DNA from: an uncultured cyanobacterium
GTDB taxonomy: Bacteria > Cyanobacteriota > Cyanobacteriia > Cyanobacteriales > Microcystaceae
Direction: 5' to 3'
Assembly: GCA_963807635.1 (NCBI GenBank)
Contig: CAWEDJ010000039.1
Span: 1-64,000 of the forward strand
Length of the DNA: 64,000 nt
Positions 41,443 through 57,950 of this stretch are shown one piece after another (within the stretch, counting starts at the first letter, position 1; each line of letters starts with the position of its first letter). The position numbers were made by a program, and so were the translations under genes. The notes under the pieces are model-generated. The model worked only from the letters and a program-made list of their open reading frames with translations. It had not been told where the DNA came from and ran no database searches.

Positions 41443-43534
41443 ATGAAAGCCACCGAAGCTAATTTACTAGATTTTATTAGAAAATCATCTCAGTTTATTA
41501 TTCCAATCTACCAACGCACATACTCTTGGACGGACAAAGAGTGTAAACAGTTATGGGATGATATTATTCGTACTGGCTTAAATGACGAGATTAAAGCGCA
41601 CTTTGTTGGTTCGATTGTCTATATTGAAAAAGGAATATATCATGTATCAAGTCAGTCTCAACTGTTGGTGATTGATGGCCAACAGCGTTTAACGACTATT
41701 ACATTGCTTATTGCGGCATTGGCTAATGCAATCGGCGATCAAGAAATTGCAGAAGGATTTTCAAGAAGAAAGTTAAGGAATTATTATTTACTAAATCCTG
41801 AAGAAGAAGGAGAAATGCACTTTAAGTTAATTCTCTCACAAACTGATAAAAATTCTTTGATTTCTATTCTTAGAAGATCTTGAAAAACCAAAAGATTTTT
41901 CTATTCGTATCTTGGAAAATTTTAATTTATTTTAATCTCTAATTAGTAATCGAAAAGATGATTTAAGAATTATCTGTAAAGGGTTAGCAAAATTACTAGT
42001 TGTTGATATTGCATTAAGCCGTGATCAAGATAATCCTCAGCTTATTTTTGAGAGTATGAATTCTACAGGTCGTGAACTTAGTCAAGCTGACTTAATTCGT
42101 AACTATATTTTGATGGGTCTTGAGCCTCAACTTCAAACAGAACTATATGAAAAATACTGGCGACCAATGGAAATAGAATTTGGTCAAGAAGCCTATGGTA
42201 GCCAATTTGACGGATTTATGCGCCATTATTTAACGGTAAAAACAGGCACTATTCCTAATTTAGGACAAGTCTATGAAGCATTCAAGGAATATGCCAGATA
42301 TTCTGTTGTTGAGCAAGCTGGAATCGAAAAATTGGTAAGTGATATTCGTACATTTTCTCGTTATTTTTGTGCAATGGCTATCGGTCTTGAGCCAGAAAAT
42401 GATCTCAAGTTAGCCTTTCAAGATTTAAGAGAATTAAAAGTCGATGTAGCTTATCCTTTGCTTTTAGAACTTTATCATGATTATAAAAATCAAATACTTT
42501 CTAAAGGAGATTTCTTACAAGCTATTCGATTGGTTGAATCCTATGTATTTCGGCGTGCGGTTTGTGCAATTCCCACAAATTCGATGAACAAAACATTTAA
42601 TACATTAACAAAATCTCTTAAGAAAGAGCGTTATCTCGAAAGCATAGGTGCTTATTTGCTTTTGTTACCATCCTATCGCCGTTTTCCACGTGATGAAGAG
42701 TTTAAAAAGGATTTACAGACAAAAGATCTTTATAAATTTCGTAGCCGTAGCTATTGGATTCGTCGGTTAGAAAATTACAATAGAAAGGAACGTGTTTCAA
42801 TTGATGAATATACGATTGAACATATTATGCCTCAAAATGAAAATTTACCTTCAGCTTGGAAATTAGAATTAGGAGTAGATTGGAAAAGAATTCATGGAAC
42901 TTATTTACATACGCTCGGAAATTTAACGCTTACAGGCTATAACTCTGAATACAGCGATAAATCCTTTATCGACAAACGAGATATGAAGAATGGCTTTAAG
43001 GATAGTCCTCTTAATCTTAACCAAGGACTTGGGCAGATAGAACAATGGAACGAAGGAAGCATTCGCCAACGAGCAGATCAACTTTCGAGCTTGGCACTAG
43101 ATGTCTGGCCTGCACCTCAACTAACAGAAAATATTCTGAATTCTTTTAGGACAACTCCCATATCAGTCAGTTATTCAATTAATGAACATCCTCATTTACT
43201 GTCAGGAAAAATGCGAGAGGTGTTTGAAGCATTCCGAAAAGAAGTTTTAGCTCTTGATTCTTGCATTACGGAAGAATTCCTTAAGCTTTATGTTGCCTAT
43301 AAAGCAGAAACTAATTTTGTGGATGTCGTCCCACAAGCTAAACGATTACGTCTTTCTGTTAATATTCCTTTTATAGAGATAGATGATCCAAAAAATCTCT
43401 GTAAAGATGCTACTAAATTAGGACGTTGGGGGAATGGTGATGTTGAAATTGGATTGTCGTCCCTGGATGAATTGCCCTACGTTATGGGAATAGTTCGTCA
43501 AGCTCTTGAAAGACAGATGGGTGATATAGAATAA
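41443..43534 (+). pseudogene. GmrSD-type (DUF262-DUF1524 plus C-terminal DUF5655-like) type IV restriction protein, disrupted
   Basis: IPIYQRTYSW, IDGQQRLTT, IFESMNSTG, TIEHIMPQ, LGNLTL..YNSEYSDK; frameshift ~41875 and in-frame TAA at 41933-41935. Confidence 0.82.
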
Positions 43535-47411: not shown

Positions 47412-47555
47412 GTAATGTTTCTCTACCCAATGATCGCCCCTTTCCCTTTCATGACAAAATGATAACCTTCTAGATCACAATAAAAAGCGATCGCCTTTTT
47501 TCCATATCACTTTTAATGCGGTTAAAATAGGGGAAGGTATTTCTGGATTAAAATT

Positions 47556-47792
47556 ATGACGCAAATTACAGTTGAACTTCCTGATGAATTGGCAATACAG
47601 ATTCAATCACAAATTGCTCAGGGAGAGTTCAGTAACCTGGGCGAGTATGTTGTGTATCTATTGCAAAAAGAGCAATCACAGCTTCGTTCTACTCAGTTAG
47701 AAAAAATGTTTTTAGAAGGTCTAGATAGTGGAGAATTAATTGAAATAACCGATCAATGGTGGGAACAAAAACGCCAAGAGATTTTATCATGA
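47556..47792 (+). CDS. ParD-like (RHH) antitoxin, orphan
   Basis: ITVELPDEL...IAQGEFSNLGEYVVYLL...LEGLDSGE..EIT..WWEQKR; downstream overlapping ATG gives only 11 codons. Confidence 0.75.
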   Translation: MTQITVELPDELAIQIQSQIAQGEFSNLGEYVVYLLQKEQSQLRSTQLEKMFLEGLDSGELIEITDQWWEQKRQEILS

Positions 47793-48141
47793 ATCACCGA
47801 ATTTTAAGAATCCTGCGTTATTGAGACTATTTTTTCATAATTAAAGTAGTTTATCTCTTTTAGACACAAGTAATACTATTCAATTCAATAATGAGCCTGA
47901 GCAGAAGTCCATTTTAACCTAACGAGATCGCCCCTTTCCTCTTCACTTCTTAAAAAGCGATCGCCTTTTAACTTTACAAAAAGTTCACAGATTAAGGTGT
48001 TCAATTTTTTTAGGGATAGCGTAACACACAAAATTGTATGCTCTTGTAAATAATCAAAAGGTGCATGGCATTTCATTAATGTCTTCTACAAGATTTGACC
48101 GACAAATAAGCGCATCTTAACAATATTGAAAATCTGATCTA

Positions 48142-49164
48142 TCATTCTTGTTCAGAAGATGTGAAAAATTGAGACTCAGCAAGGGTATTTTCCTCATACC
48201 AATTATTCCATTTTTGTTCTTCTTTTTTGTATAAATCAGAATTAATAATTCGAGGACGTATCAACTGTATTTTATTATTGATTTCGTTTGAAAAAACAAA
48301 CCGATGAGCATTTTCGACAATAAATCTTTGGAAATAAATGGCTGTATCTATCGAAATAATAGTCCCACGTAATGGAGGTCTATAACCAATCTGAGTGTAC
48401 ATTAAATGTTGAGGACTAAGAGGGATAAAAATTTCGGTTCCCTTACTTCCCCATCCTCCATTAAAATCATATTCACATTTTTGATTTTTTCCATAGTAAT
48501 TAAGACGAGTGACTGGATTGTCACTAGTTAAAAAACTGAAGTTTTTAGGACTTTTAAGAATTGTCCATTTTTGTTGATGAAGAGCTGATTTAGTATACGT
48601 AAGTAGACGCTGAATCGCAAATAGCCAAGCACTTCTTCCGATCAGAGCTTCATAGTGAACTAAAACATTATCATCCTGATTTTCAGTTTTATTTATGCGA
48701 ATAGGGATTAATTCTTGATATTTTAAACTTTTATCAGATTCTTTAATTAAGTTTTTTTGAATATCGTTAGACATTTTTTTTATATTATCAAATGAATCAT
48801 CTAGAGTTTTCATTAGATCAATACATCTCACTGGTGTTCGGACATCCTGAGCAGCTACAAAATCAATTAACTCTATCCAATCAAGCTCAGAAAGATGTTG
48901 ATCATTAACAGCCTTCGATATTGCTTTCTCTGCTGGAGCTTCAAACTCTGATGCGAACCATTTTTCAATTTCATCTGACTCTATAGAGTTGATATTTTTA
49001 GTATAAAAATTATGATAAATTGGAATTTTTGATATTGCTATTTGTTGCCAAATGGGAACTTTTTTGTGTGAAACAAGTATCCTATATGTCCATATTTTTT
49101 TATGTTGATTACTCCATTTTTTTTAGTACATTTTTGGGACGTAATGATTTTTTCTTTGAAGCAT
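48142..49164 (-). pseudogene. DUF4238 family protein with premature stop at codon 14
   Basis: MLQRKNHYVPKMY*KKWS... stays in frame to FLTSDNPV and IFIPLSPQ; TAA at 49123-49125; AT-rich. Confidence 0.75.
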
Positions 49165-49377: not shown

Positions 49378-49434
49378 TCAAGAAGAAATTACCTCAACTG
49401 ATATTAAAAGTATATCCTCATCAAGGCTGATCGC
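49378..49434 (-). repeat. Distal duplicated clpB 3' tail (AISLDEDILLISVEVISS*)
   Basis: 57 bp, starts gcgatc, 39/57 identical to clpB 52511-52567 by manual alignment, no gaps. Confidence 0.75.
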
Positions 49435-49462
49435 CGATTCTTCTTACTTACCAAAACCTTAT

Positions 49463-51248
49463 TCATAGAAATTTTGCCTCTTTTAAAACCTGATCTTTAA
49501 TAAAACGACTTAACCCCTTCTCTGTAACAATATCAACTTTACAACCTAAAAAATCCTGTAAATCCATCAGCAATCCACCAGGAAACTAAGGAGAAATTCC
49601 ACCTGTAAATAATTAGTTGATGATTAACAAGATTGAGCAGGAAACCAAAGAGAAGTCCAGCAATGATTAAGTTCAGCTACCTTGAGAAAGCTTAAAGCCT
49701 TGCTACCATTCATGCTCCAACTTACACCCTTTTTTTTCTGACGATGACCAACGACCAAATCTACGCCTTTTTCAATGCGACCACTACCAATACTTTTACC
49801 GACTTTTCGCCGACCTTCGTAGTTGATGATTTCTGAGTGATGTTTCTCCAAATAACCAATAAGTTCCAACAAGACCTTGTTATTGCGAGCAACAACCTGA
49901 TGTTTTAAGTAGTTGAGGGCAATATCAGTCTGACCATGCCATAATTGTGAGAGTAAAAACTTGACATGATTGGATTTTTCTTCTTTGTTGAAAGCAATCA
50001 TAGACATCAGATTTCGCACTTTTTTGCATAGGTGATACCAGTCTAAAATCACAACAGGTAAAACACCAAAGATAGCCAAGAGGCGATGGCGAATGACTTT
50101 TGCCCCATCGGTGATAGCAACAATATTCAACGGTTTTGATTCCTTTTGATAGAGGTCGAGAATTCTCGCTCTAACGACTGTCGCAAGACTTATCGGTTCT
50201 TCTACCTCAGTATCAAAAGGAGAAACGAGATATTCAAATCCCCCTTTGGGTGTTTGCAACATTACTACATCGGTAATGACGGCGGGAGTCTTATTCTTGG
50301 TGGTATCTGGACTTGGAGTATGGGCAGTAGATTCATTACGCGAATTACGCTCAGGCTTTTGTCCTTTGACTTGAATACCATCGTCAAATAGGAGAATTTC
50401 TGACTCCTCTACGTTATAAATCTCTACGCTTTTCTTTATCTGAATCTGCTCAGATGTGGTCGATTCTAATGATTCTTGTACAGTTTGTCGGATTTGCTGG
50501 CTATAGGTTTCGGCTTTCCCTTTCACTATTCCCCAAATGGTCTGGTCACTCAATAAGTTTTCTCCTGTTACTCGCTCCACTAATCCAGCCAAATTCTCAT
50601 AACTGAGCCGATTGGCGTAATAACCGCATAATTCCTCTAATCTCTGACTCACAAATCTTTCCTGCAATTGCTCCGATAACTGAAAATAGTTAACTTCTTT
50701 TTTATTCGTTTGATACTTTTGTAAGTAAAACTCAAACTGACCGTGTAATGTTTTTATACAGATTTTTCTCGTACCATTACACCACAAGTTTAGTTTTTTT
50801 TACTTTTTCCGTGAACTCGTTTTGTGCCTGCGCCAGTAAGGCTGCCTCTATTTCAGGCAATACTTTCTGTTTCATCTGTTCTACACCTCCTTCTATGTCA
50901 TGTAAGCTTTGGGTTCCTATTTCCATTGCAAATGGGCTGTTTTGGCTGAGAATATTTCCCATTTCGTTACGAATCACGAATTCTACCGTCACTTTCATCC
51001 TTTTTACTCCTTTTTTTAAGACAATCTGTTTTTTTGCTTTCTCTTCATTTTACCTAATCATCAACTAATTATTTACAGGTAGGAGAAATTTGTTTTAGAT
51101 CATAATCAATTAAAAAATCAACATCACTAGCTTCAGTTTCTTCTCCCCTCGCTACCGAGCCAAAAACTCTTACATTAAAAGCTCCATGCTTGGCCGCGAT
51201 CGCCAGAATATCCTGACGTTTTTCCTGTAGTAATTGACTCAGTTTCAT
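49463..51248 (-). pseudogene. Minimal nucleotidyltransferase (MNT) antitoxin gene, IS-interrupted and with a nonsense codon
   Basis: Removing the IS and one TSD restores MKLSQLLQEKRQDILAIAAKHGAFNVRVFGSVARGEETEASDVDFLIDY...[25 protein letters not shown]...KEAKFL*. Confidence 0.85.
49599..51082 (-). mobile_element. Complete ISKra4/ISLre2-like (Mutator-type, UPF0236) IS with 8-bp TSD
   Basis: 28-bp TIRs c(c/t)acctgtaaataattagttgatgatta; GAGAAATT duplicated at 49591-49598 and 51083-51090; ORF1 50777-50998 and ORF2 49624-50787 (LFDDG, TDGAK, LDWYHL, IGSGRIEK). Confidence 0.9.
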
Positions 51249-51458
51249 TTAAGCAACCTCCACATATTCACAAAGAGAAACCGACTCAGGAATAGTCATC
51301 CCCTCTTCTTGCAATCCTTCTAAGTGAAATAGGATCGCTTCGGAAATTAACTCTTTTATCTCCTCCAACGATTCGCCAACCGCAACACATCCTGGCAAAT
51401 CAGGAACATAAGCCCCATAGCTGGTTTCACCTTTTTCAATCACGATCGCATAACGCAT
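51249..51458 (-). CDS. hicB: HicB-family antitoxin
   Basis: YAIVIEK...YGAYVPDLPGCVAVGES.EE...EAILFHLEGL. Confidence 0.9.
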   Translation of the reverse strand: MRYAIVIEKGETSYGAYVPDLPGCVAVGESLEEIKELISEAILFHLEGLQEEGMTIPESVSLCEYVEVA

Positions 51459-51460
51459 AA

Positions 51461-51664
51461 TTAAATTTCTCCTTGAATTTGAACTTGTTGCCAGATTCTT
51501 TTTAGTGTACCGATAGGAATATCAACACTTAATTTGCCTGATACTATCACCGTCCCTGATTTTAAAGAATGTTTATATTGACGATGACTGCCTCGCGTTC
51601 GAGCTAAGTACCAACCATCAGCTTCCAAAGTTTTGATAACCTCTTTTACTTTCGTTTTATTCAA
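51461..51664 (-). CDS. hicA: HicA-family toxin
   Basis: EVIKTLEADGWYLARTRGSHRQYKH...DIPIGTLKRI. Confidence 0.88.
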   Translation of the reverse strand: MNKTKVKEVIKTLEADGWYLARTRGSHRQYKHSLKSGTVIVSGKLSVDIPIGTLKRIWQQVQIQGEI

Positions 51665-51726
51665 TAATCCAGTTAATTAGTCAAGTTATCATGCAAATTT
51701 GAATATCGTCAATACCGAAGATTAAG

Positions 51727-51783
51727 TTAAGAAGAAATAACCTCCACTTCCGCTAAAGGCACATCCTCCTTAACAGCGATCGT
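51727..51783 (-). repeat. Proximal duplicated clpB 3' tail (TIAVKEDVPLAEVEVISS*)
   Basis: 57 bp, starts acgatcgc, 48/57 identical to clpB 52511-52567 by manual alignment, no gaps. Confidence 0.88.
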
Positions 51784-51815
51784 CTCTCAATTTTAAAAGC
51801 GATCACTGAAAAATA

Positions 51816-52145
51816 TCAAGCAATAATTAATATTGAATCAGAATTATTAGAAAAATCCTCAATTCGTTCTTTATATTTTGTGATTAATCGCAAGAGAATA
51901 TCACGATTACAATTCCCAATCCGAAGCCAGATTAATTTGGGTGGATGACCGTAAAGTAATGCCCGTTGATAAAAATCTGAATCTTTAGAAATCACAGTGA
52001 AATTATTATTTTTAGCATATTCCCAAATCCTTTCATTAGCAAATCCTTTCATCCCAATATCCCTGACGTGAAGACTATTAGGAAATTCATTGATCAGTAA
52101 ACGCGGCAATTTGGGGGATAAATTTTCATCAAACAGTAATTTCAT
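51816..52145 (-). CDS. DUF5615 PIN-like toxin
   Basis: MKLLFDENLSP...HVRD...IWEYAK...ISKDSDF...PPKLIWLRIGN. Confidence 0.9.
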   Translation of the reverse strand: MKLLFDENLSPKLPRLLINEFPNSLHVRDIGMKGFANERIWEYAKNNNFTVISKDSDFYQRALLYGHPPKLIWLRIGNCNRDILLRLITKYKERIEDFSNNSDSILIIA

Positions 52146-52365
52146 CGGGAATAATCATTAAATGGCGATCGCGGTCAGCAGCAAAAGCGAAACAGGCTTG
52201 TATATCTTCTAAAGTTAGATCGGGAAAATCGTCTAAAACGTCCTCAATGGTCATCCCTCCCCCCAAATAATCTAAAACATCATTAACGGTAATCCGAGTA
52301 TTAACAATACAGGGCTTTCCACTACAAATGGAAGGATTAATTGTAATTCGTTGACGATAATTCAT
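52129..52365 (-). CDS. DUF433 antitoxin
   Basis: RITINPSICSGKPCIVNTRITV.DVL..L..GMT.EDVL.DFPDLT.EDIQAC. Confidence 0.92.
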   Translation of the reverse strand: MNYRQRITINPSICSGKPCIVNTRITVNDVLDYLGGGMTIEDVLDDFPDLTLEDIQACFAFAADRDRHLMIIPDEITV

Positions 52366-52510
52366 CGTTTTTTCCTCAAGAAATTAACATAGGAAATTAA
52401 TTTTTGATCGCCCCTCAATTTAAAAAGCGATCACGTTTTTTTCTGCTTACCAAAAACTTATTTATAGGGATTTCGCCTCTTTTTAATTGTGAGTTACCAA
52501 TTTTGAGCTA

Positions 52511-55201
52511 TCAAGAAGATAAAACTTCCACTTCCACTAAAGGCACATCATCCTCAACCGCGATCGCGTCTTCTTGAACTTCCTCCTGCTTACCAAAAAC
52601 CAAATGATTATCAACACAATCAATTAGAATTCTGTCCCCTGCCATAAACGCATTTTCCAGGATCTTCGTGGCAATAGGATTTTCTAACTCCCGTTGAATC
52701 GCCCGCTTTAACGGTCTGGCTCCATAGACAGGATCGTAACCCGCACTGACAATATGATCCAATGCTGATGCGGATAAAGATAAGGTGATCTTCTGCTCAT
52801 CTAGAAGCTGTTCAATGCGTTTAATTTGTAAGACCACAATCCGACATAATTCATCCCGTTTTAAAGTATGGAAAATAATCAGATCATCAATACGATTTAG
52901 AAATTCAGGACGGAAATGTTTGCGGAGAGATTGCATCACTTGTTTCTGCATTTGATCATAATCCGAATCATCCCCTGCCATCCCTAAAATATGGTCACTG
53001 CCAATATTACTGGTCATCACAATAATCGTATTGCGAAAATCCACCACTCGACCTTGGGAATCCGTAATTCTGCCATCATCTAATACTTGCAAGAGAATAT
53101 TAAACACATCTAAATGGGCTTTTTCCACCTCATCCAATAGCACCACCGAATAGGGACGACGACGCACGGCTTCCGATAATTGCCCCCCTTCTTCATAGCC
53201 CACATAACCTGGAGGCGCACCAATCAGACGGGAAACCGCGTGTTTTTCCATATATTCGGACATATCAATCCGCACCATCGCCTCTTCACTGTCAAAGAGA
53301 AAAGATGCTAATGCTCTCGCTAATTCCGTTTTGCCTACGCCCGTTGGCCCCATGAACAGAAAAGAACCAATGGGACGATTGGGATCTTTCATGCCTGCTC
53401 TGGCGCGACGAATGGCGGCGGAAACGGCGATTACGGCTTCCTGTTGACCGATAACCCTTTGATGTAAATGACCTTCGAGTTGCAGAAGTTTTTGTCGTTC
53501 GGAGGCTAGGAGGCGATTAAGGGGAATACCTGTCCAACCTGCCACAATTTCCGCAATATCGGATTCAGTGACTTGTTCGCGTAAAAGGGTTTTTCCTTCT
53601 GCTTGAATTTCTAATAGCTTGGTTTCCTTTTCTTCAATCGCCGTTTGCAGGACTTCGAGCTTACCGTATTTCAGTTGAGCCGCTTTATTGAGATCATAAT
53701 CCCGCTCTGCTTTTTCCACTTGACGACGAATTTGTTCTTCTTCTTCTTTGAGAGTATTAATTTCCTCTAACATTTGTTTTTCCGAAAGCCATTGTCCCGA
53801 AAGTTCTTGTTGCTTGGTTTCTAATTCTTCAATTTCTGATTGAATTTTTTCGAGACGTTCCTTAGACGATTTATCCGTTCCTAAGCCTGAGCGTTTTTCT
53901 TCTCCTTCTAGGGATAATTTCTCCATTTGCAGTTGCATTAGTCGCCGATCAATATCTTCTAATTCAACGGGCTTGGAGGTAATTTCCATTTTTAAACGGG
54001 CCGCCGCTTCATCGACTAAATCGATCGCCTTATCGGGCAAAAAGCGATCGCTGATATAACGATGGGACAAAGTTGCCGCCGCGACTAACGCAGAATCGGT
54101 AATTTTTACGCCATGATGGACTTCGTAACGTTCCTTAAGTCCCCGTAAAATAGAGATAGCATCTTCTACACTGGGTTGTTTGACATAAACTTGCTGAAAA
54201 CGACGCTCTAGGGCAGGATCTTTCTCAATATTTTTACGATATTCATCTAAAGTGGTTGCACCGATACAACGCAATTCACCCCGTGCCAACATCGGTTTCA
54301 GCAAATTACCCGCATCCATCGAGCCTTCACGACCACCCGCCCCAACAACGGTATGGACTTCATCAATGAATAGAATAATCTGTCCATCGGAATTCGTGAC
54401 TTCCTTCATCACCGATCGCAGTCTTTCTTCAAATTCCCCCCGATATTTTGCCCCCGCAATCAAACTGCCCATATCGAGGGAAATTAACTGCCGATTTTTC
54501 AAGGATTCAGGCACATCCCCATTAATAATCCTTTGAGCCAATCCTTCCGCGATCGCCGTTTTACCGACTCCTGGTTCCCCAATCAAGACAGGATTATTTT
54601 TAGAACGACGAGACAACACCTGGATCACCCGCCGAATCTCTTCATCTCTGCCAATCACCGGATCTAATTTTCCCTGTCTCGCCTGTTCGGTCAGATCTCG
54701 CCCATATTTTTCCAACGCCTCATATTTTTCTTCCTGATTAGGTTCCGTGACTTTTTGACTACCCCGAATGGCTTTAATCGCCACTTCCAAATCCTGGGGA
54801 TCGAGATTAAAGGTGAGCAAAAGTTTACGTCCCACCCGCTCATCTTCGGCAAATCCGACCAATATATGTTCAACGGAAATGAATTTGTCATCCCAGCTTT
54901 CCTTAGCCGCATCCGCGCGATCGAGCATCACATCCAAACTGCGACCCAAATAGAGTTGATCAATAAAACTCTGTTTCGCCTGACGATTAGTAAATGCCTC
55001 TAGTTGTTGCTGAAAACTGGTCACATCAATGGTTGCCTTCTGGAAAATCCGCAAAGCTAACCCCTTTTCCTGTTCGAGGAGAGCCAGGACAACGTGTTCT
55101 ACTTCTAGGGTTTGATTTTTGAAACGACGGGCGACTTCTTGGGATTTTACGATCGCGTCCCAGGCTTGTTCGGTAAATTTGCTTGGATCGGTGGGTTGCA
55201 T
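52511..55201 (-). CDS. clpB: ATP-dependent chaperone ClpB
   Basis: Two AAA+ modules ([16 protein letters not shown]), middle coiled-coil domain, [23 protein letters not shown]. Confidence 0.97.
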
Positions 55202-55384: not shown

Positions 55385-56404
55385 ATGCTGAGTTATATTT
55401 TTTGGAATAATAAGGGTGGTACGGGTAAAACAAGTTTGGCATTTCAATCTATTTGTCGATATGCATATAAACACCCTGACAAACGAATACTTGCCATTGA
55501 TGTGTGTCCTCAAGCCAATCTATCAGAACTTTTTCTAGGTGGATTGACTGGCAATGGTAGTCGAAACTTATTGGAACGTCAGGGACATATTACTCGCTGT
55601 AGTATTGGCGGTTATTTTCAGTTACGTCTTCCGGCTCCATTTTCTGTGCCAACGTTTTCTGTACGAGATTTTTTTACAAAACCAGTCATTTACAATGCAA
55701 ATATTCCAAATAATATAGATTTGTTTGCTGGTGACCCTTTACTTGAGCTACAAGCCAATGCCATTAACACTTTGGCCAATACACAGATACCTGGTACTGA
55801 TACGTGGATTGAAATTATTGATTGGATTAATGATGCACTTGATCAAGTAAGAAATGAGTATGACACTGTTTTTATTGATGCAAATCCCAGTTTCTCTATT
55901 TACACACAGATTGCAATTTCGACAGCTGATCGTATTATACTTCCCGTAATGGCTGATGATTCTTCTCGAAGAGCTATTCAAAACGCGTTTTCATTAATAT
56001 ACGGGTTGAAGTTACCCTCAGACATATATTCAAAATATGCGTTTGCAACTAAGTTAAAGTCTGCTAATCGCTCACTTCCTCAAGCTCATATTGTTGTCAA
56101 AAATCGTATTACTCAATATATGGGCCCTGCCTCTGCGTACTCTGCCGTTTTACGTTCGATAGAACAAGACGTATCAGATTTAATTCATTCAAATCCAACT
56201 ATCTTTACCTTTAGTCAGATTAACAAAGGAGTCGTAGAAGTCCGAGATTTTCAAACTACTGGTGTTGTCGCATTTGCCAGAGGATGTCCTTTCTATAATC
56301 AGGTTAGTGGCAAATTAGATATTGGTGGTCATCGGGTTCAAGTTAAAGAAGAGTACCGAATAAATTGTATTAAATCTGTTGATAATCTCGTTGATAAACT
56401 ATAA
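55385..56404 (+). CDS. ParA/Soj family ATPase, orphan
   Basis: Deviant Walker A NNKGGTGKTS, IDVCPQANLS, FIDANPSFS; no parB adjacent; no HIP1 inside. Confidence 0.85.
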   Translation: MLSYIFWNNKGGTGKTSLAFQSICRYAYKHPDKRILAIDVCPQANLSELFLGGLTGNGSRNLLERQGHITRCSIGGYFQLRLPAPFSVPTFSVRDFFTKPVIYNANIPNNIDLFAGDPLLELQANAINTLANTQIPGTDTWIEIIDWINDALDQVRNEYDTVFIDANPSFSIYTQIAISTADRIILPVMADDSSRRAIQNAFSLIYGLKLPSDIYSKYAFATKLKSANRSLPQAHIVVKNRITQYMGPASAYSAVLRSIEQDVSDLIHSNPTIFTFSQINKGVVEVRDFQTTGVVAFARGCPFYNQVSGKLDIGGHRVQVKEEYRINCIKSVDNLVDKL

Positions 56405-56516
56405 ATTTTATAGCTGATTAGATCGCCTACTTTTAGGTCTGCTCACTTTCGGGTGCGTTAAGCATAATCACTTTGGAATAGGTGATCGCGTTGCAAGAGT
56501 TGATCTTTTGACGAGC

Positions 56517-56551
56517 GCGATCGCCTTTATATTGGGATAAAGTGCGATCAC
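56517..56551 (+). repeat. Paired-HIP1 direct repeat (left copy)
   Basis: gcgatcgc-ctttatattgggataaagt-gcgatcac; related copy at 57703-57737. Confidence 0.75.
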
Positions 56552-56604
56552 TTTCAGTCATCATGTAAAATAATTACATAACAATCATCTATAAAAAATA
56601 AACC

Positions 56605-56826
56605 ATGATTCAATCTGTTGAAGCAATTATTGATCCAGAAGGAAACGTACATTTGCTCGAATCGGTTAAACTTTCCACATCGAAAAAGGCGATCGTCACC
56701 ATTCTTGAAGACAATCCGATAATTTCTATCTCCGAAACAGCCCTATTAAGTGAAGCAAGTTTGGCAGAAGATTGGTTAAGACCTGAAGAGGATGAGGCAT
56801 GGTCGCACCTACAACTAGCTCAATAA
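56605..56826 (+). CDS. Putative antitoxin for the downstream MazF/PemK toxin
   Basis: Acidic 73 aa, ...ETALLSEASLAEDWLRPEEDEAWSHL; overlaps toxin gene. Confidence 0.75.
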   Translation: MIQSVEAIIDPEGNVHLLESVKLSTSKKAIVTILEDNPIISISETALLSEASLAEDWLRPEEDEAWSHLQLAQ

Positions 56827-57137
56827 TTTTAATACCCTTTCCTTTTTCTGACCTCTCACAATCTAAACTCCGTCCCGCCGTTGTGTTAGCTAATGCAGGA
56901 AAAGAAGACTGGATACTCTGTCAAATAACTAGCAAATCCTATGCCGATTTACAATCTATTAAACTAACCGATGATGATTTTGCTAATGGTTCTTTAAAAT
57001 TAGTTAGCTATGCTCGTCCAGGTAAATTATTTACAGCAAACAGTAGCCTAATCGTATCTAAAGTTGGTGAATTGAAACAAGAAAAATTGCTGGAAATTAT
57101 TAACACAGTGGTGAGCTTATTGAGAAGATGCTTATAA
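56799..57137 (+). CDS. MazF/PemK-family toxin
   Basis: LIPFPFSDLSQSKLRPAVVL...ILCQITS...SYARPGKLFTAN. Confidence 0.88.
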   Translation: MVAPTTSSIILIPFPFSDLSQSKLRPAVVLANAGKEDWILCQITSKSYADLQSIKLTDDDFANGSLKLVSYARPGKLFTANSSLIVSKVGELKQEKLLEIINTVVSLLRRCL

Positions 57138-57216
57138 AAAAACTCTTATCTCTAAGGCGATCGCGTTTTAGTCTTATTGTAAAATAGCAATATTAAAAGT
57201 ATTTTGTAAATCCATC

Positions 57217-57435
57217 ATGACAGAACTAATAGAACAAGCAATTTCAAAGCTCAAAACCCTGCCATCCGACCAACAAGAAGCGATCGCGTCCATCATTCTA
57301 GAAGAAATTGAAGAGGAAAAACGATGGGATCAATCCTTTGCTCGTTCACCTGATTTATTAGCCAAACTTGCCGCAGAAGCCATGACTGAATACCGAGAAG
57401 GCAAAACTCAAGAACTCGATCCAGAAACCTTGTGA
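57217..57435 (+). CDS. Putative antitoxin
   Basis: MTELIEQAI..LK.LP.DQQEAIA.IILEEIEEEKRWD..FA.S..LL.KLA.EA; 4-nt overlap with toxin. Confidence 0.75.
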   Translation: MTELIEQAISKLKTLPSDQQEAIASIILEEIEEEKRWDQSFARSPDLLAKLAAEAMTEYREGKTQELDPETL

Positions 57436-57701
57436 AATCCCAAACAACTATTCAGTTTCGTAAACAATTTGCCGCTCTTCCTAAACAAACTCAAGAGCAA
57501 ACCCGCAAAGCATATCGGCAATTTAAAAATGCTCCCAATCATCCTAGTTTACGATTTAAAAAAGTCCATCCTCAATTACCTATTTATTCCGCTCGAATTA
57601 ACAAAGATTATCGAGTGGTTGGTCAATTAGAGAAAAATACTGTAATCTGGTTTTGGATTGGCTCCCATGCTGAATATGATTTACTCTTGAATCAGTTTTA
57701 A
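57432..57701 (+). CDS. RelE/ParE-like toxin
   Basis: FRKQFAALP...KAYRQF...PNHPSLRFKKV...YSARI..DYR...WFWIGSHAEYD. Confidence 0.8.
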   Translation: MKSQTTIQFRKQFAALPKQTQEQTRKAYRQFKNAPNHPSLRFKKVHPQLPIYSARINKDYRVVGQLEKNTVIWFWIGSHAEYDLLLNQF

Positions 57702-57702
57702 G

Positions 57703-57737
57703 GCGATCGCGTTTGTATTGCGTTAAAGTGCGATCGC
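57703..57737 (+). repeat. Paired-HIP1 direct repeat (right copy)
   Basis: gcgatcgc-gtttgtattgcgttaaagt-gcgatcgc; spacer 15/19 identical to the copy at 56517-56551. Confidence 0.75.
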
Positions 57738-57950
57738 CGATTTTATGAATCCAATTCACGACCCATCACAATGGCTTTAGATTGGAAGACTGGGAGTGAA
57801 AATGATAGGGGAGAAGTATAGAAGCGATCGCAATTTTTTCAATTCTTGGACAGATTTATTAAGAATCCCAGACGAAAAGTCAGTGAAATCCCCAAAAGCA
57901 AGTTACCCTATAGGGGAAATAATCTTGCCAACTAGCCAAATTAGGAATTT

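What the first reader, a model, noticed from the sequence alone, without database searches (positions are those of the whole stretch)
49378..52567. Serial in-register copies of the clpB 3' tail, each starting at a HIP1 site, separate stacked TA/defence cassettes
Seen: the last 57 bp of clpB (52511-52567) begin exactly at a HIP1 site and encode [18 protein letters not shown]. Two more ungapped, stop-terminated 57-bp copies lie downstream in the same orientation: 51727-51783 (TIAVKEDVPLAEVEVISS*, 48/57) and 49378-49434 (AISLDEDILLISVEVISS*, 39/57). Each tail is followed by different cargo: DUF433/DUF5615; HicAB plus MNT; DUF4238. Identity falls with distance from clpB and no integrase is present in the window. 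Inference: cassettes carrying a replacement clpB tail insert repeatedly at the HIP1 site in clpB, regenerating the gene and pushing older tails distally, like a polarised integron-style array. Recombination between sites could also swap ClpB C-termini. I do not recognise this as a described system.
Basis: partly seen in the sequence, partly recalled or inferred. Interest (0 to 1): 0.85.

Follow-up and report, generated by a model that had tools for sequence, protein, structure and literature searches.

The report
Displaced gene ends beside toxin-antitoxin cassettes
The spare copies of the clpB gene end are real, but they are one case of a genome-wide habit in a freshwater cyanobacterium, in which small toxin-antitoxin cassettes are recombined in at the ends of ordinary genes and leave a decaying copy of the gene end behind, often, though not mostly, joined at the cyanobacterial HIP1 palindrome.

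Summary
The three clpB tails are confirmed (48/57 and 39/57 identical). Only tail 1 starts at a perfect HIP1. Tail 3's homology begins about 28 bp upstream of its HIP1-like site, and an IS splits the MNT gene. Relatives carry different cargo after clpB, and tail and cargo travel together. The pattern is not specific to clpB: about 11 genes of this genome (carB, gatA, tsaD, a putA-like gene, a deaminase, an ABC ATPase and others) have a stranded 3' end behind mostly TA-type cargo. One relative shows an empty site, another a five-copy array, and another a stranded clpB head. Breakpoints are scattered, and I found no recombinase near these sites. HIP1 words mark 5 of 13 non-clpB junctions (0.95 expected, P about 0.001, window chosen afterwards). 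Best reading: transformation anchored by homology on one side and joined by microhomology on the other, with HIP1 a favoured but minority joint (0.6). This works like Rhs/T6SS displacement arrays and is not an integron. The scan noted displaced tails earlier in CPR bacteria and archaea; the HIP1 link and TA arrays are new here.

The parts
52511..55201 (-). clpB (896 aa), the anchor gene; its last ~35 residues lie beyond the D2-small domain
   Evidence: ORF; Pfam Clp_N, AAA, AAA_lid_9, AAA_2, ClpB_D2-small 780-859
52511..52567 (-). T1, the functional clpB tail, starting at a perfect HIP1
   Evidence: 56/57 identical to G004 and L052 tails
52434..52486 (-). Relic after T1: last ~25 bp of an MNT gene plus a clpB-derived linker (52443-52457), ending at a degenerate HIP1; direct repeat of 49435-49487
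   Evidence: D7 (79%); 15/15 to clpB; close to the L052 MNT-linker junction
52406..52434 (-). 29-bp segment between two HIP1-like sites, left boundary of the DUF433/DUF5615 cassette; only two copies in the genome
   Evidence: D11
52129..52365 (-). DUF433 gene (antitoxin-like; TA role recalled)
   Evidence: PF04255 E=1.8e-26
51816..52145 (-). DUF5615 PIN-like gene
   Evidence: PF18480 E=1.5e-33
51778..51806 (-). Second copy of the 29-bp HIP1-bounded segment, abutting T2
   Evidence: D11 (90%)
51727..51783 (-). T2, orphan clpB tail starting at ACGATCGC; linked to the hicA leader as in G003 and L154
51461..51664 (-). hicA
   Evidence: PF07927 E=4e-18
51249..51458 (-). hicB-like
   Evidence: PF15919 E=1e-15
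51081..51248 (-). 5' part of the MNT nucleotidyltransferase gene, cut by the IS
   Evidence: PF01909; intact in G004 and L052
49589..51080 (-). Insertion sequence, ~1.49 kb with ~10-bp target repeat; transposase ORFs 50777-50998 and 49624-50787 (ISLre2/ISKra4-like is a recalled label)
   Evidence: inverted repeats I1; weak UPF0236 E=0.003; empty site 49588->51081 or 49589->51082 in 4 of 4 runs
49463..49588 (-). 3' part of the MNT gene (ends ...VLKEAKFL*)
49378..49462 (-). T3 with ~28 bp of upstream clpB-derived linker from a 9-bp shorter allele; same junction as the L052 orphan
48142..49164 (-). DUF4238 gene, broken by an in-frame stop at codon 14
   Evidence: PF14022, PADLOC DUF4238-Pers E=1e-5, frames
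56517..57735 (+). On the other side of clpB: PemK/MazF-like and ParE-like TA pairs bracketed by a 33-bp HIP1-to-HIP1 direct repeat (56517-56549, 57703-57735); homology to a relative breaks at these sites
   Evidence: D10; Pfam

Best explanation
The tails are scars of one-side-anchored DNA uptake in a recombinogenic, probably naturally competent, Snowella-like cyanobacterium. DNA from a related strain arrives carrying part of a core gene, its end and whatever small cassette that strain keeps there. RecA pairs the gene side. The other end is joined at a few bases of microhomology, and when that joint falls inside the recipient's gene end, the old end and its flank are pushed aside as an orphan (homology-facilitated illegitimate recombination). 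HIP1 is GC-rich and present every 850 bp in donor and recipient, and serves as a favoured but minority joint. Once several tails exist they give homology for ordinary recombination, so tail+cargo units are reordered, duplicated and deleted, producing TA arrays at hot sites such as both ends of clpB and a TPR gene. Orphans then decay. Shown: the sequence anatomy, genome-wide recurrence, linkage of tail and cargo, one empty site, scattered breakpoints, HIP1 enrichment and decay. Inferred: transformation as the route, RecA anchoring, and the order of events.
For: Orphan tails downstream on the same strand: 15 copies at 14 genes, versus 0 downstream on the opposite strand, 5 upstream same-strand and 4 upstream opposite-strand (all from one inverted duplication); about 11 genes remain after dropping an IS, a paralogue pair and an ambiguous case. 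Anchors are core genes and the cargo is mostly TA-type. Empty site at the deaminase gene in G004 (93% over 1,549 bp). Independent events with different breakpoints at one gene. Reordered tail+cargo units between G000 and G014, with five tail copies in G014. Mirror-image stranded clpB head in L151; head copies upstream 11 vs downstream 1 (relaxed filter, some are TPR or paralogue repeats). HIP1 word at 5 of 13 non-clpB junctions vs 0.95 expected, and at 28 of 241 homology-block ends vs 2.7% inside blocks. ComEC is present. The tyrosine (6) and serine (2) recombinase hits lie on other contigs or 28 kb from the nearest site. The same model is proposed for T6SS and Rhs arrays (PMC5361080, passages). 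HIP1 raises transformation in PCC 7002 (10.1101/2024.09.10.611283, abstract).
Against: No event was caught in progress. The sliding-window test for a donor tract upstream of the junction was inconclusive. Experimental HFIR is rare, orders of magnitude below homologous recombination (PMC5361080 passage). The HIP1 window (-8 to +11) was chosen after seeing the junctions. HIP1 at block ends could partly reflect conserved HIP1 sites in diverged intergenic DNA, and the offset peak is only about threefold (17 vs ~5). The ABC-ATPase arrangement is shared by G000, G003 and G004, so some arrays are old and stable. The pattern was not seen in 80 clpB loci of cyanobacteria (1.09 Mb, 635 genes), and a second CarB end occurred in only 2 of 89 family genomes. 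Why it concentrates in this lineage is unexplained.
Confidence: 0.6

Rival explanations
1. Circle route without an integrase. Recombination between two HIP1 sites, or another microhomology, excises a small tail+cargo circle in a donor. After transfer, the circle integrates by a single RecA crossover in the homologous gene end, duplicating it.
For: It gives the same end structure. HIP1-to-HIP1 excision is documented (smtB deletion, passage in PMC13756078; Robinson 1997 as cited in PMC4390886). The ectopic clpB tail at C26 starts at HIP1, a carB tail with its cargo lies on another contig in G001, and short HIP1-bounded direct repeats flank TA cassettes (D10, D11).
Against: Many duplicated segments are only 33-60 bp, short for RecA (30-bp threshold quoted in PMC2884548). 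8 of 13 junctions lack a HIP1 word. No circle junction was seen in four runs, though contigs drop rare forms.
Confidence: 0.2
2. One reading: a dedicated site-specific recombinase, encoded elsewhere or lost from decayed islands, inserts cassettes at an att site in the clpB end.
For: A regenerated gene plus a displaced fragment is the hallmark of integrase islands (PMC4383910, listing). T2, the L051 orphan and the C26 copy start at the same HIP1. Site-specific HIP1 recombination was reported in PCC 7002 (as cited in PMC4390886).
Against: About 11 unrelated target genes, breakpoints that differ within one gene, and head as well as tail displacement. No recombinase near any site. No clpB tail pattern in viral contigs (0 hits). 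No orphan in 80 clpB loci.
Confidence: 0.1
3. Local tandem duplication of clpB end and flank, followed by deletion and decay, with no foreign DNA.
For: The 53-bp and 29-bp direct repeats, homology upstream of HIP1 at T3, and truncated hicA, hicB and MNT relics after clpB in relatives.
Against: The DNA between copies is unrelated cargo. Orphans match other strains' alleles together with those strains' cargo. The empty site at the deaminase gene lacks the cargo altogether.
Confidence: 0.05

Closest known systems
C-terminal displacement arrays of Rhs, CDI and Vibrio T6SS effector-immunity loci (Kirchberger 2017, PMC5361080, passages read)
   Same: Stacked orphan 3' ends with cargo, no integrase, proposed homology-facilitated illegitimate recombination, later reshuffling by homologous recombination; the authors draw the same comparison with integrons.
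   Different: Here the anchors are housekeeping genes whose end is replaced by a near-equivalent one, the cargo is free-standing TA modules, it happens at many genes and at both gene ends, and HIP1 is a favoured joint.
MGE-free HGT hotspots diversified by recombination in flanking core genes (Oliveira 2017, PMC5635113, passages read)
   Same: Rapid cargo turnover next to core genes, no integrase, more frequent in transformable species.
   Different: That model is a double crossover, which leaves no duplicated gene end; the orphans need one illegitimate joint.
HIP1-associated recombination (PCC 7002 plasmid recombination, smtB excision, SDR5 insertion; as cited in PMC4390886 and PMC13756078, passages read)
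   Same: HIP1 or its CGATCG core at joints.
   Different: Those reports concern plasmids, deletions or 20-nt repeats; here HIP1 marks gains of gene-sized cargo in natural strains, in a minority of joints.
Integrase islands and integrons (Islander, PMC4383910, listing only; integron features recalled)
   Same: Regenerated target gene plus displaced fragment; arrays of small TA-rich cassettes.
   Different: No integrase nearby, no fixed attachment point, no attC-like repeat shared across cassettes.

Membership tests
Integron or integron-like array | Adjacent tyrosine integrase (IntI) | tested here: not met
   PF00589 hits only on C28 and C93:18 kb; PF00239 on C28 and C102; genome 93.7% complete
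Integron or integron-like array | One fixed insertion point | tested here: not met
   Breakpoints differ within clpB, carB, C107 and the TPR gene
Integron or integron-like array | Shared attC-type site on cassettes | tested here: inconclusive
   The 29- and 33-bp HIP1-bounded repeats have only 2 and 3 copies in the genome; no folding or covariance search was run
Integron or integron-like array | Newest cassette always proximal | tested here: inconclusive
   Fits the deaminase locus; the clpB array looks inserted behind a resident T1; unit order differs between G000 and G014
Integrase island using clpB as attB | Integrase-bearing element or phage carrying the clpB end | tested here: not met
   0 viral contigs with the tail pattern; no orphan tail in 80 clpB loci
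HFIR displacement array (Rhs/T6SS-like) | Orphan gene ends linked to the cargo found on the intact gene in other strains | tested here: met
   T2-hicA vs G003; L051 orphan vs G001; TPR third tail vs G004; deaminase empty site
HFIR displacement array (Rhs/T6SS-like) | Scattered joints, no recombinase | tested here: met
HFIR displacement array (Rhs/T6SS-like) | Donor tract extends into the anchor beyond the joint | tested here: inconclusive
   Sliding-window identities do not separate donor from recipient
HFIR displacement array (Rhs/T6SS-like) | Dependence on RecA and DNA uptake | not testable with these tools
   Only ComEC presence shown
Polymorphic toxin locus (Rhs/CDI proper) | Orphans encode alternative toxic C-termini with immunity genes | tested here: not met
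   Tails are 11-120 codons of housekeeping genes and are decaying

The most novel reading that the evidence does not exclude
HIP1 is a programmed, methylation-marked joining site. During transformation a host enzyme, not an element-borne integrase, joins incoming DNA at HIP1, so that any gene end with a HIP1 is a landing pad. The stranded ends then serve as recombination handles that let TA and defence cassettes be stacked and reordered like integron cassettes. This would give HIP1 a direct role in gene gain.
Probability: 0.2. Interest if true: 0.8.

Novelty: new variant of a known kind. Interest (0 to 1): 0.55.

Why it matters
HIP1's function has been open for three decades; recent work links it to transformation efficiency but not to natural gene-gain junctions. 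These genomes give junctions at base resolution, about five-fold enriched for HIP1 words, and point to a simple experiment. They also show how integrase-free TA hotspots can be built at the ends of core genes, a process so far described mainly for Rhs and T6SS toxin loci. Stranded gene ends are an easily scanned marker of such events.

Tried and rejected
Viral-contig scan for the clpB tail: 0 hits. Scan of 80 clpB loci: only simple-repeat noise. CarB C-terminus in 89 family genomes: a second copy in 2, both in the window's genus. Weak-score scan (14-20): 2 downstream copies (T3 and one doubtful) vs 3 in controls, so there is no large hidden pool. Rows dropped before the HIP1 count: clpB itself (chosen for HIP1), C1 (IS), C85 (paralogue pair) and C100 (ambiguous, no HIP1 word; including it gives 5 of 14); C36 and C49 were added. 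Donor-tract test inconclusive. Codon-position test of selection: functional tails also vary at all three positions (9/8/10), so it has little power; carB and gatA orphans differ mostly at silent sites (5 syn/0 nonsyn/1 stop; 16/7), as expected for alleles stranded recently. No tree of tails was built (57 bp). The 29- and 33-bp HIP1-bounded repeats are not a dispersed family. No run bridged the whole array, and DUF4238 had almost no cover in four runs, which proves nothing. 20 of 24 runs listed hold 0.17-0.22 of the words; only four were laid. The first genome scan timed out and was rewritten. Literature searches that found no description of this pattern in cyanobacteria: (open-access library only; no supplements read).
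Full report
Observation. The three 57-bp segments are present at the stated coordinates, ungapped and stop-terminated, with 48/57 and 39/57 identity to the clpB end. The cargo names hold by Pfam. Only T1 begins with a perfect HIP1. T3's similarity to clpB begins about 28 bp further upstream, in a linker 9 bp shorter than this strain's. A fourth clpB piece, 15/15 identical and lying upstream of HIP1 in the gene, follows T1; it is part of a 53-bp direct repeat, 'end of MNT + clpB linker', that also precedes T3. The DUF433/DUF5615 pair is bracketed by a 29-bp HIP1-bounded repeat. An IS splits the MNT gene, and DUF4238 has a stop at codon 14. The nearest named relatives are labelled Snowella sp. 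and Merismopediaceae. The genome has 4,738 HIP1 sites.

Relatives at clpB. Each of the five congeners and G014 has different DNA after the clpB stop: MNT plus a HEPN-like gene (G004), hicA (G003), hicB (G005), a 219-aa gene (G001), a 597-aa gene (G014), or none of these (G002). None of the six shows a full orphan tail, but three have under 900 bp of downstream sequence, and G005 carries a stranded piece from upstream of the HIP1. Of 4 metagenome contigs found with a tail pattern, 2 carry an orphan. In L052 it follows an intact MNT with the same junction as T3 but different cargo. In L051 it starts at a perfect HIP1 and is followed by a homologue of the gene that G001 has directly on clpB. T2 with the hicA leader matches G003's clpB end at 88.5% over 288 bp, and clpB-hicAB also occurs in L154. 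In four laid runs, contigs join the clpB tail to MNT (4 of 4), to hicB (1 of 4), or the clpB body to T2 (1 of 4, low depth). Tail and downstream cargo therefore move as a unit between strains. No run bridged the complete array of the window.

Order of events at clpB (inference). The relic after T1 closely matches the L052 junction, and T1-MNT is the common allele in the laid runs. The simplest history is a resident T1-MNT-linker-orphan locus that received the block DUF433/DUF5615-T2-hicAB-MNT at the orphan's HIP1 and later lost most of the first MNT. The falling identity with distance is then not a simple age series.

Genome-wide scan. For 3,531 ORFs of at least 100 aa I compared the last and first 150 nt with 8 kb on either side and on both strands. 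With filters (score at least 20, at most 4 copies, copy outside long ORFs, gene at least 150 aa, match reaching the stop), 15 copies at 14 genes lie downstream on the same strand, against 0, 5 and 4 in the three control regions. Dropping an IS, a paralogue pair and one ambiguous case leaves 11 genes: clpB, carB, an amidase (gatA by sequence), tsaD, an aldehyde-dehydrogenase end (putA-like), a tadA-like deaminase, an ABC ATPase, marC, a TPR protein and two unnamed genes. The cargo between gene and orphan is mostly TA-type: HicA, Phd/YoeB, Phd/ParE, MNT/HepT, Uma2, DUF29. At marC and C89 it is not TA-like by eye, and the deaminase cargo had no Pfam hit.

Those loci in relatives (5 genomes searched each). 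The deaminase gene in G004 is joined directly to the tail and flank that are stranded in G000: an empty site, with no HIP1 at that joint, though the duplicated 72 bp ends at a HIP1 on its 3' side. At C107, G004 has different cargo and its own orphan, starting at -74 instead of -33. A carB orphan with similar cargo lies on another contig in G001, starting at -159 instead of -133. The ABC arrangement is shared by three genomes. At the TPR gene G000 has three stranded tails and G014 five copies (four reaching the gene end), with units in a different order and starts at -77, -93, -101, -110 and -147. L151 has the mirror image: a 113-bp copy of the clpB promoter and first codons stranded 1.4 kb upstream, behind cargo. 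An ectopic HIP1-started clpB tail sits at C26:48119.

HIP1. Leaving clpB out, a HIP1 hexamer lies within -8 to +11 of the joint, in the gene or the incoming flank, at 5 of 13 junctions; 0.95 are expected (P about 0.001; window chosen after inspection). Across 84 relative loci (410 kb, some overlapping; ends deduplicated on this genome), 28 of 241 homology-block ends carry such a hexamer against 2.7% of interior positions; three control hexamer sets scored 0, 1 and 1. Conservation of HIP1 in diverged intergenic DNA could inflate the second figure. HIP1 is thus favoured but marks a minority of joints.

Range. No stranded tail was found in 80 clpB loci from GTDB (1.09 Mb, 635 genes), and a second CarB end occurred in 2 of 89 family genomes. 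On this evidence the habit is concentrated in this genus and G014, but no other whole genome was scanned.

Mechanism. ComEC is present. The 6 tyrosine and 2 serine recombinase hits are on other contigs or 28 kb from the nearest site, and no viral contig carries the tail pattern. Many targets, scattered joints and displacement on either side of a gene fit one-sided anchoring with an illegitimate second joint (0.6). Integration of small circles gives the same product and is not excluded (0.2); my test to separate them failed. A dedicated clpB cassette recombinase is unlikely (0.1). The orphans are decaying, and the swapped ClpB end lies outside the folded domains, so C-terminus swapping is probably incidental.

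Literature. PMC5361080 (passages) proposes this mechanism for T6SS and Rhs arrays. PMC2884548 (passages) and PMC5635113 (passages) cover homology-assisted illegitimate recombination and integrase-free hotspots. PMC4390886 and PMC13756078 (passages) and 10.1101/2024.09.10.611283 (abstract) cover HIP1 in recombination and transformation. PMC4383910 was seen as a listing only. Ten searches found no account of stranded housekeeping-gene ends with TA cargo or HIP1 joints in cyanobacteria; subscription papers and supplements were not seen. Earlier notes of this scan report displaced tails in CPR bacteria and archaea and HIP1 at module junctions in another genome; they are unchecked and came after my reading was set.

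Verdict. It is a genome-wide, integrase-free process with HIP1 as a favoured minority joint, not a clpB-specific integron. New variant of a known kind; interest 0.55.

Noticed in passing
window 55385-57950 and the same interval in relatives (L150, L157, L244, L054): The interval upstream of clpB is a second hypervariable TA and defence hotspot, with different cargo in every relative and block ends at HIP1 sites 56517 and 57703.
   Followed up: partly
window 47481-47969: A 19-bp HIP1-centred direct repeat (D5/D9) brackets a small antitoxin-like ORF at 47556-47792.
   Followed up: no
G000:C26:48091-48170: Ectopic clpB tail, closest to the G001 allele (49/57), preceded by the same 33-bp HIP1-to-HIP1 segment found upstream of clpB.
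   Followed up: partly
L242:5541-10700 (G014) and G000:C105:57800-60600: Longest serial array seen: TPR gene followed by several stranded tails separating VapBC-, HicAB-, MazF- and RelBE-like modules in strain-specific order.
   Followed up: partly
L151:140-354 and 1627-1738: Stranded clpB promoter and first codons upstream of cargo; this clpB is mosaic, with a 5' part of another allele type.
   Followed up: partly
window 49378-49434, 52427-52434; G000:C26:48119: Several stranded HIP1 sites read GTGATCGC or GCGATCAC, the changes expected from deamination of the methylated C (methylation position recalled).
   Followed up: no
G000:C39:83574-86306: A second clpB paralogue (72% identical DNA) lies on the same contig.
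   Followed up: no
window 41443-43534: GmrSD-type restriction gene with DUF5655, split into two ORFs.
   Followed up: no
G000:C3:8700-15900: Near-identical inverted duplication of a phosphate-transport (pst-like) operon with single-base frameshifts in one copy; could be an assembly feature.
   Followed up: no
L103, L104, L119: Stranded tsaD and marC ends lie far from, or on other contigs than, the intact gene in G014 and G005; the G005 tsaD copy starts exactly at HIP1.
   Followed up: partly
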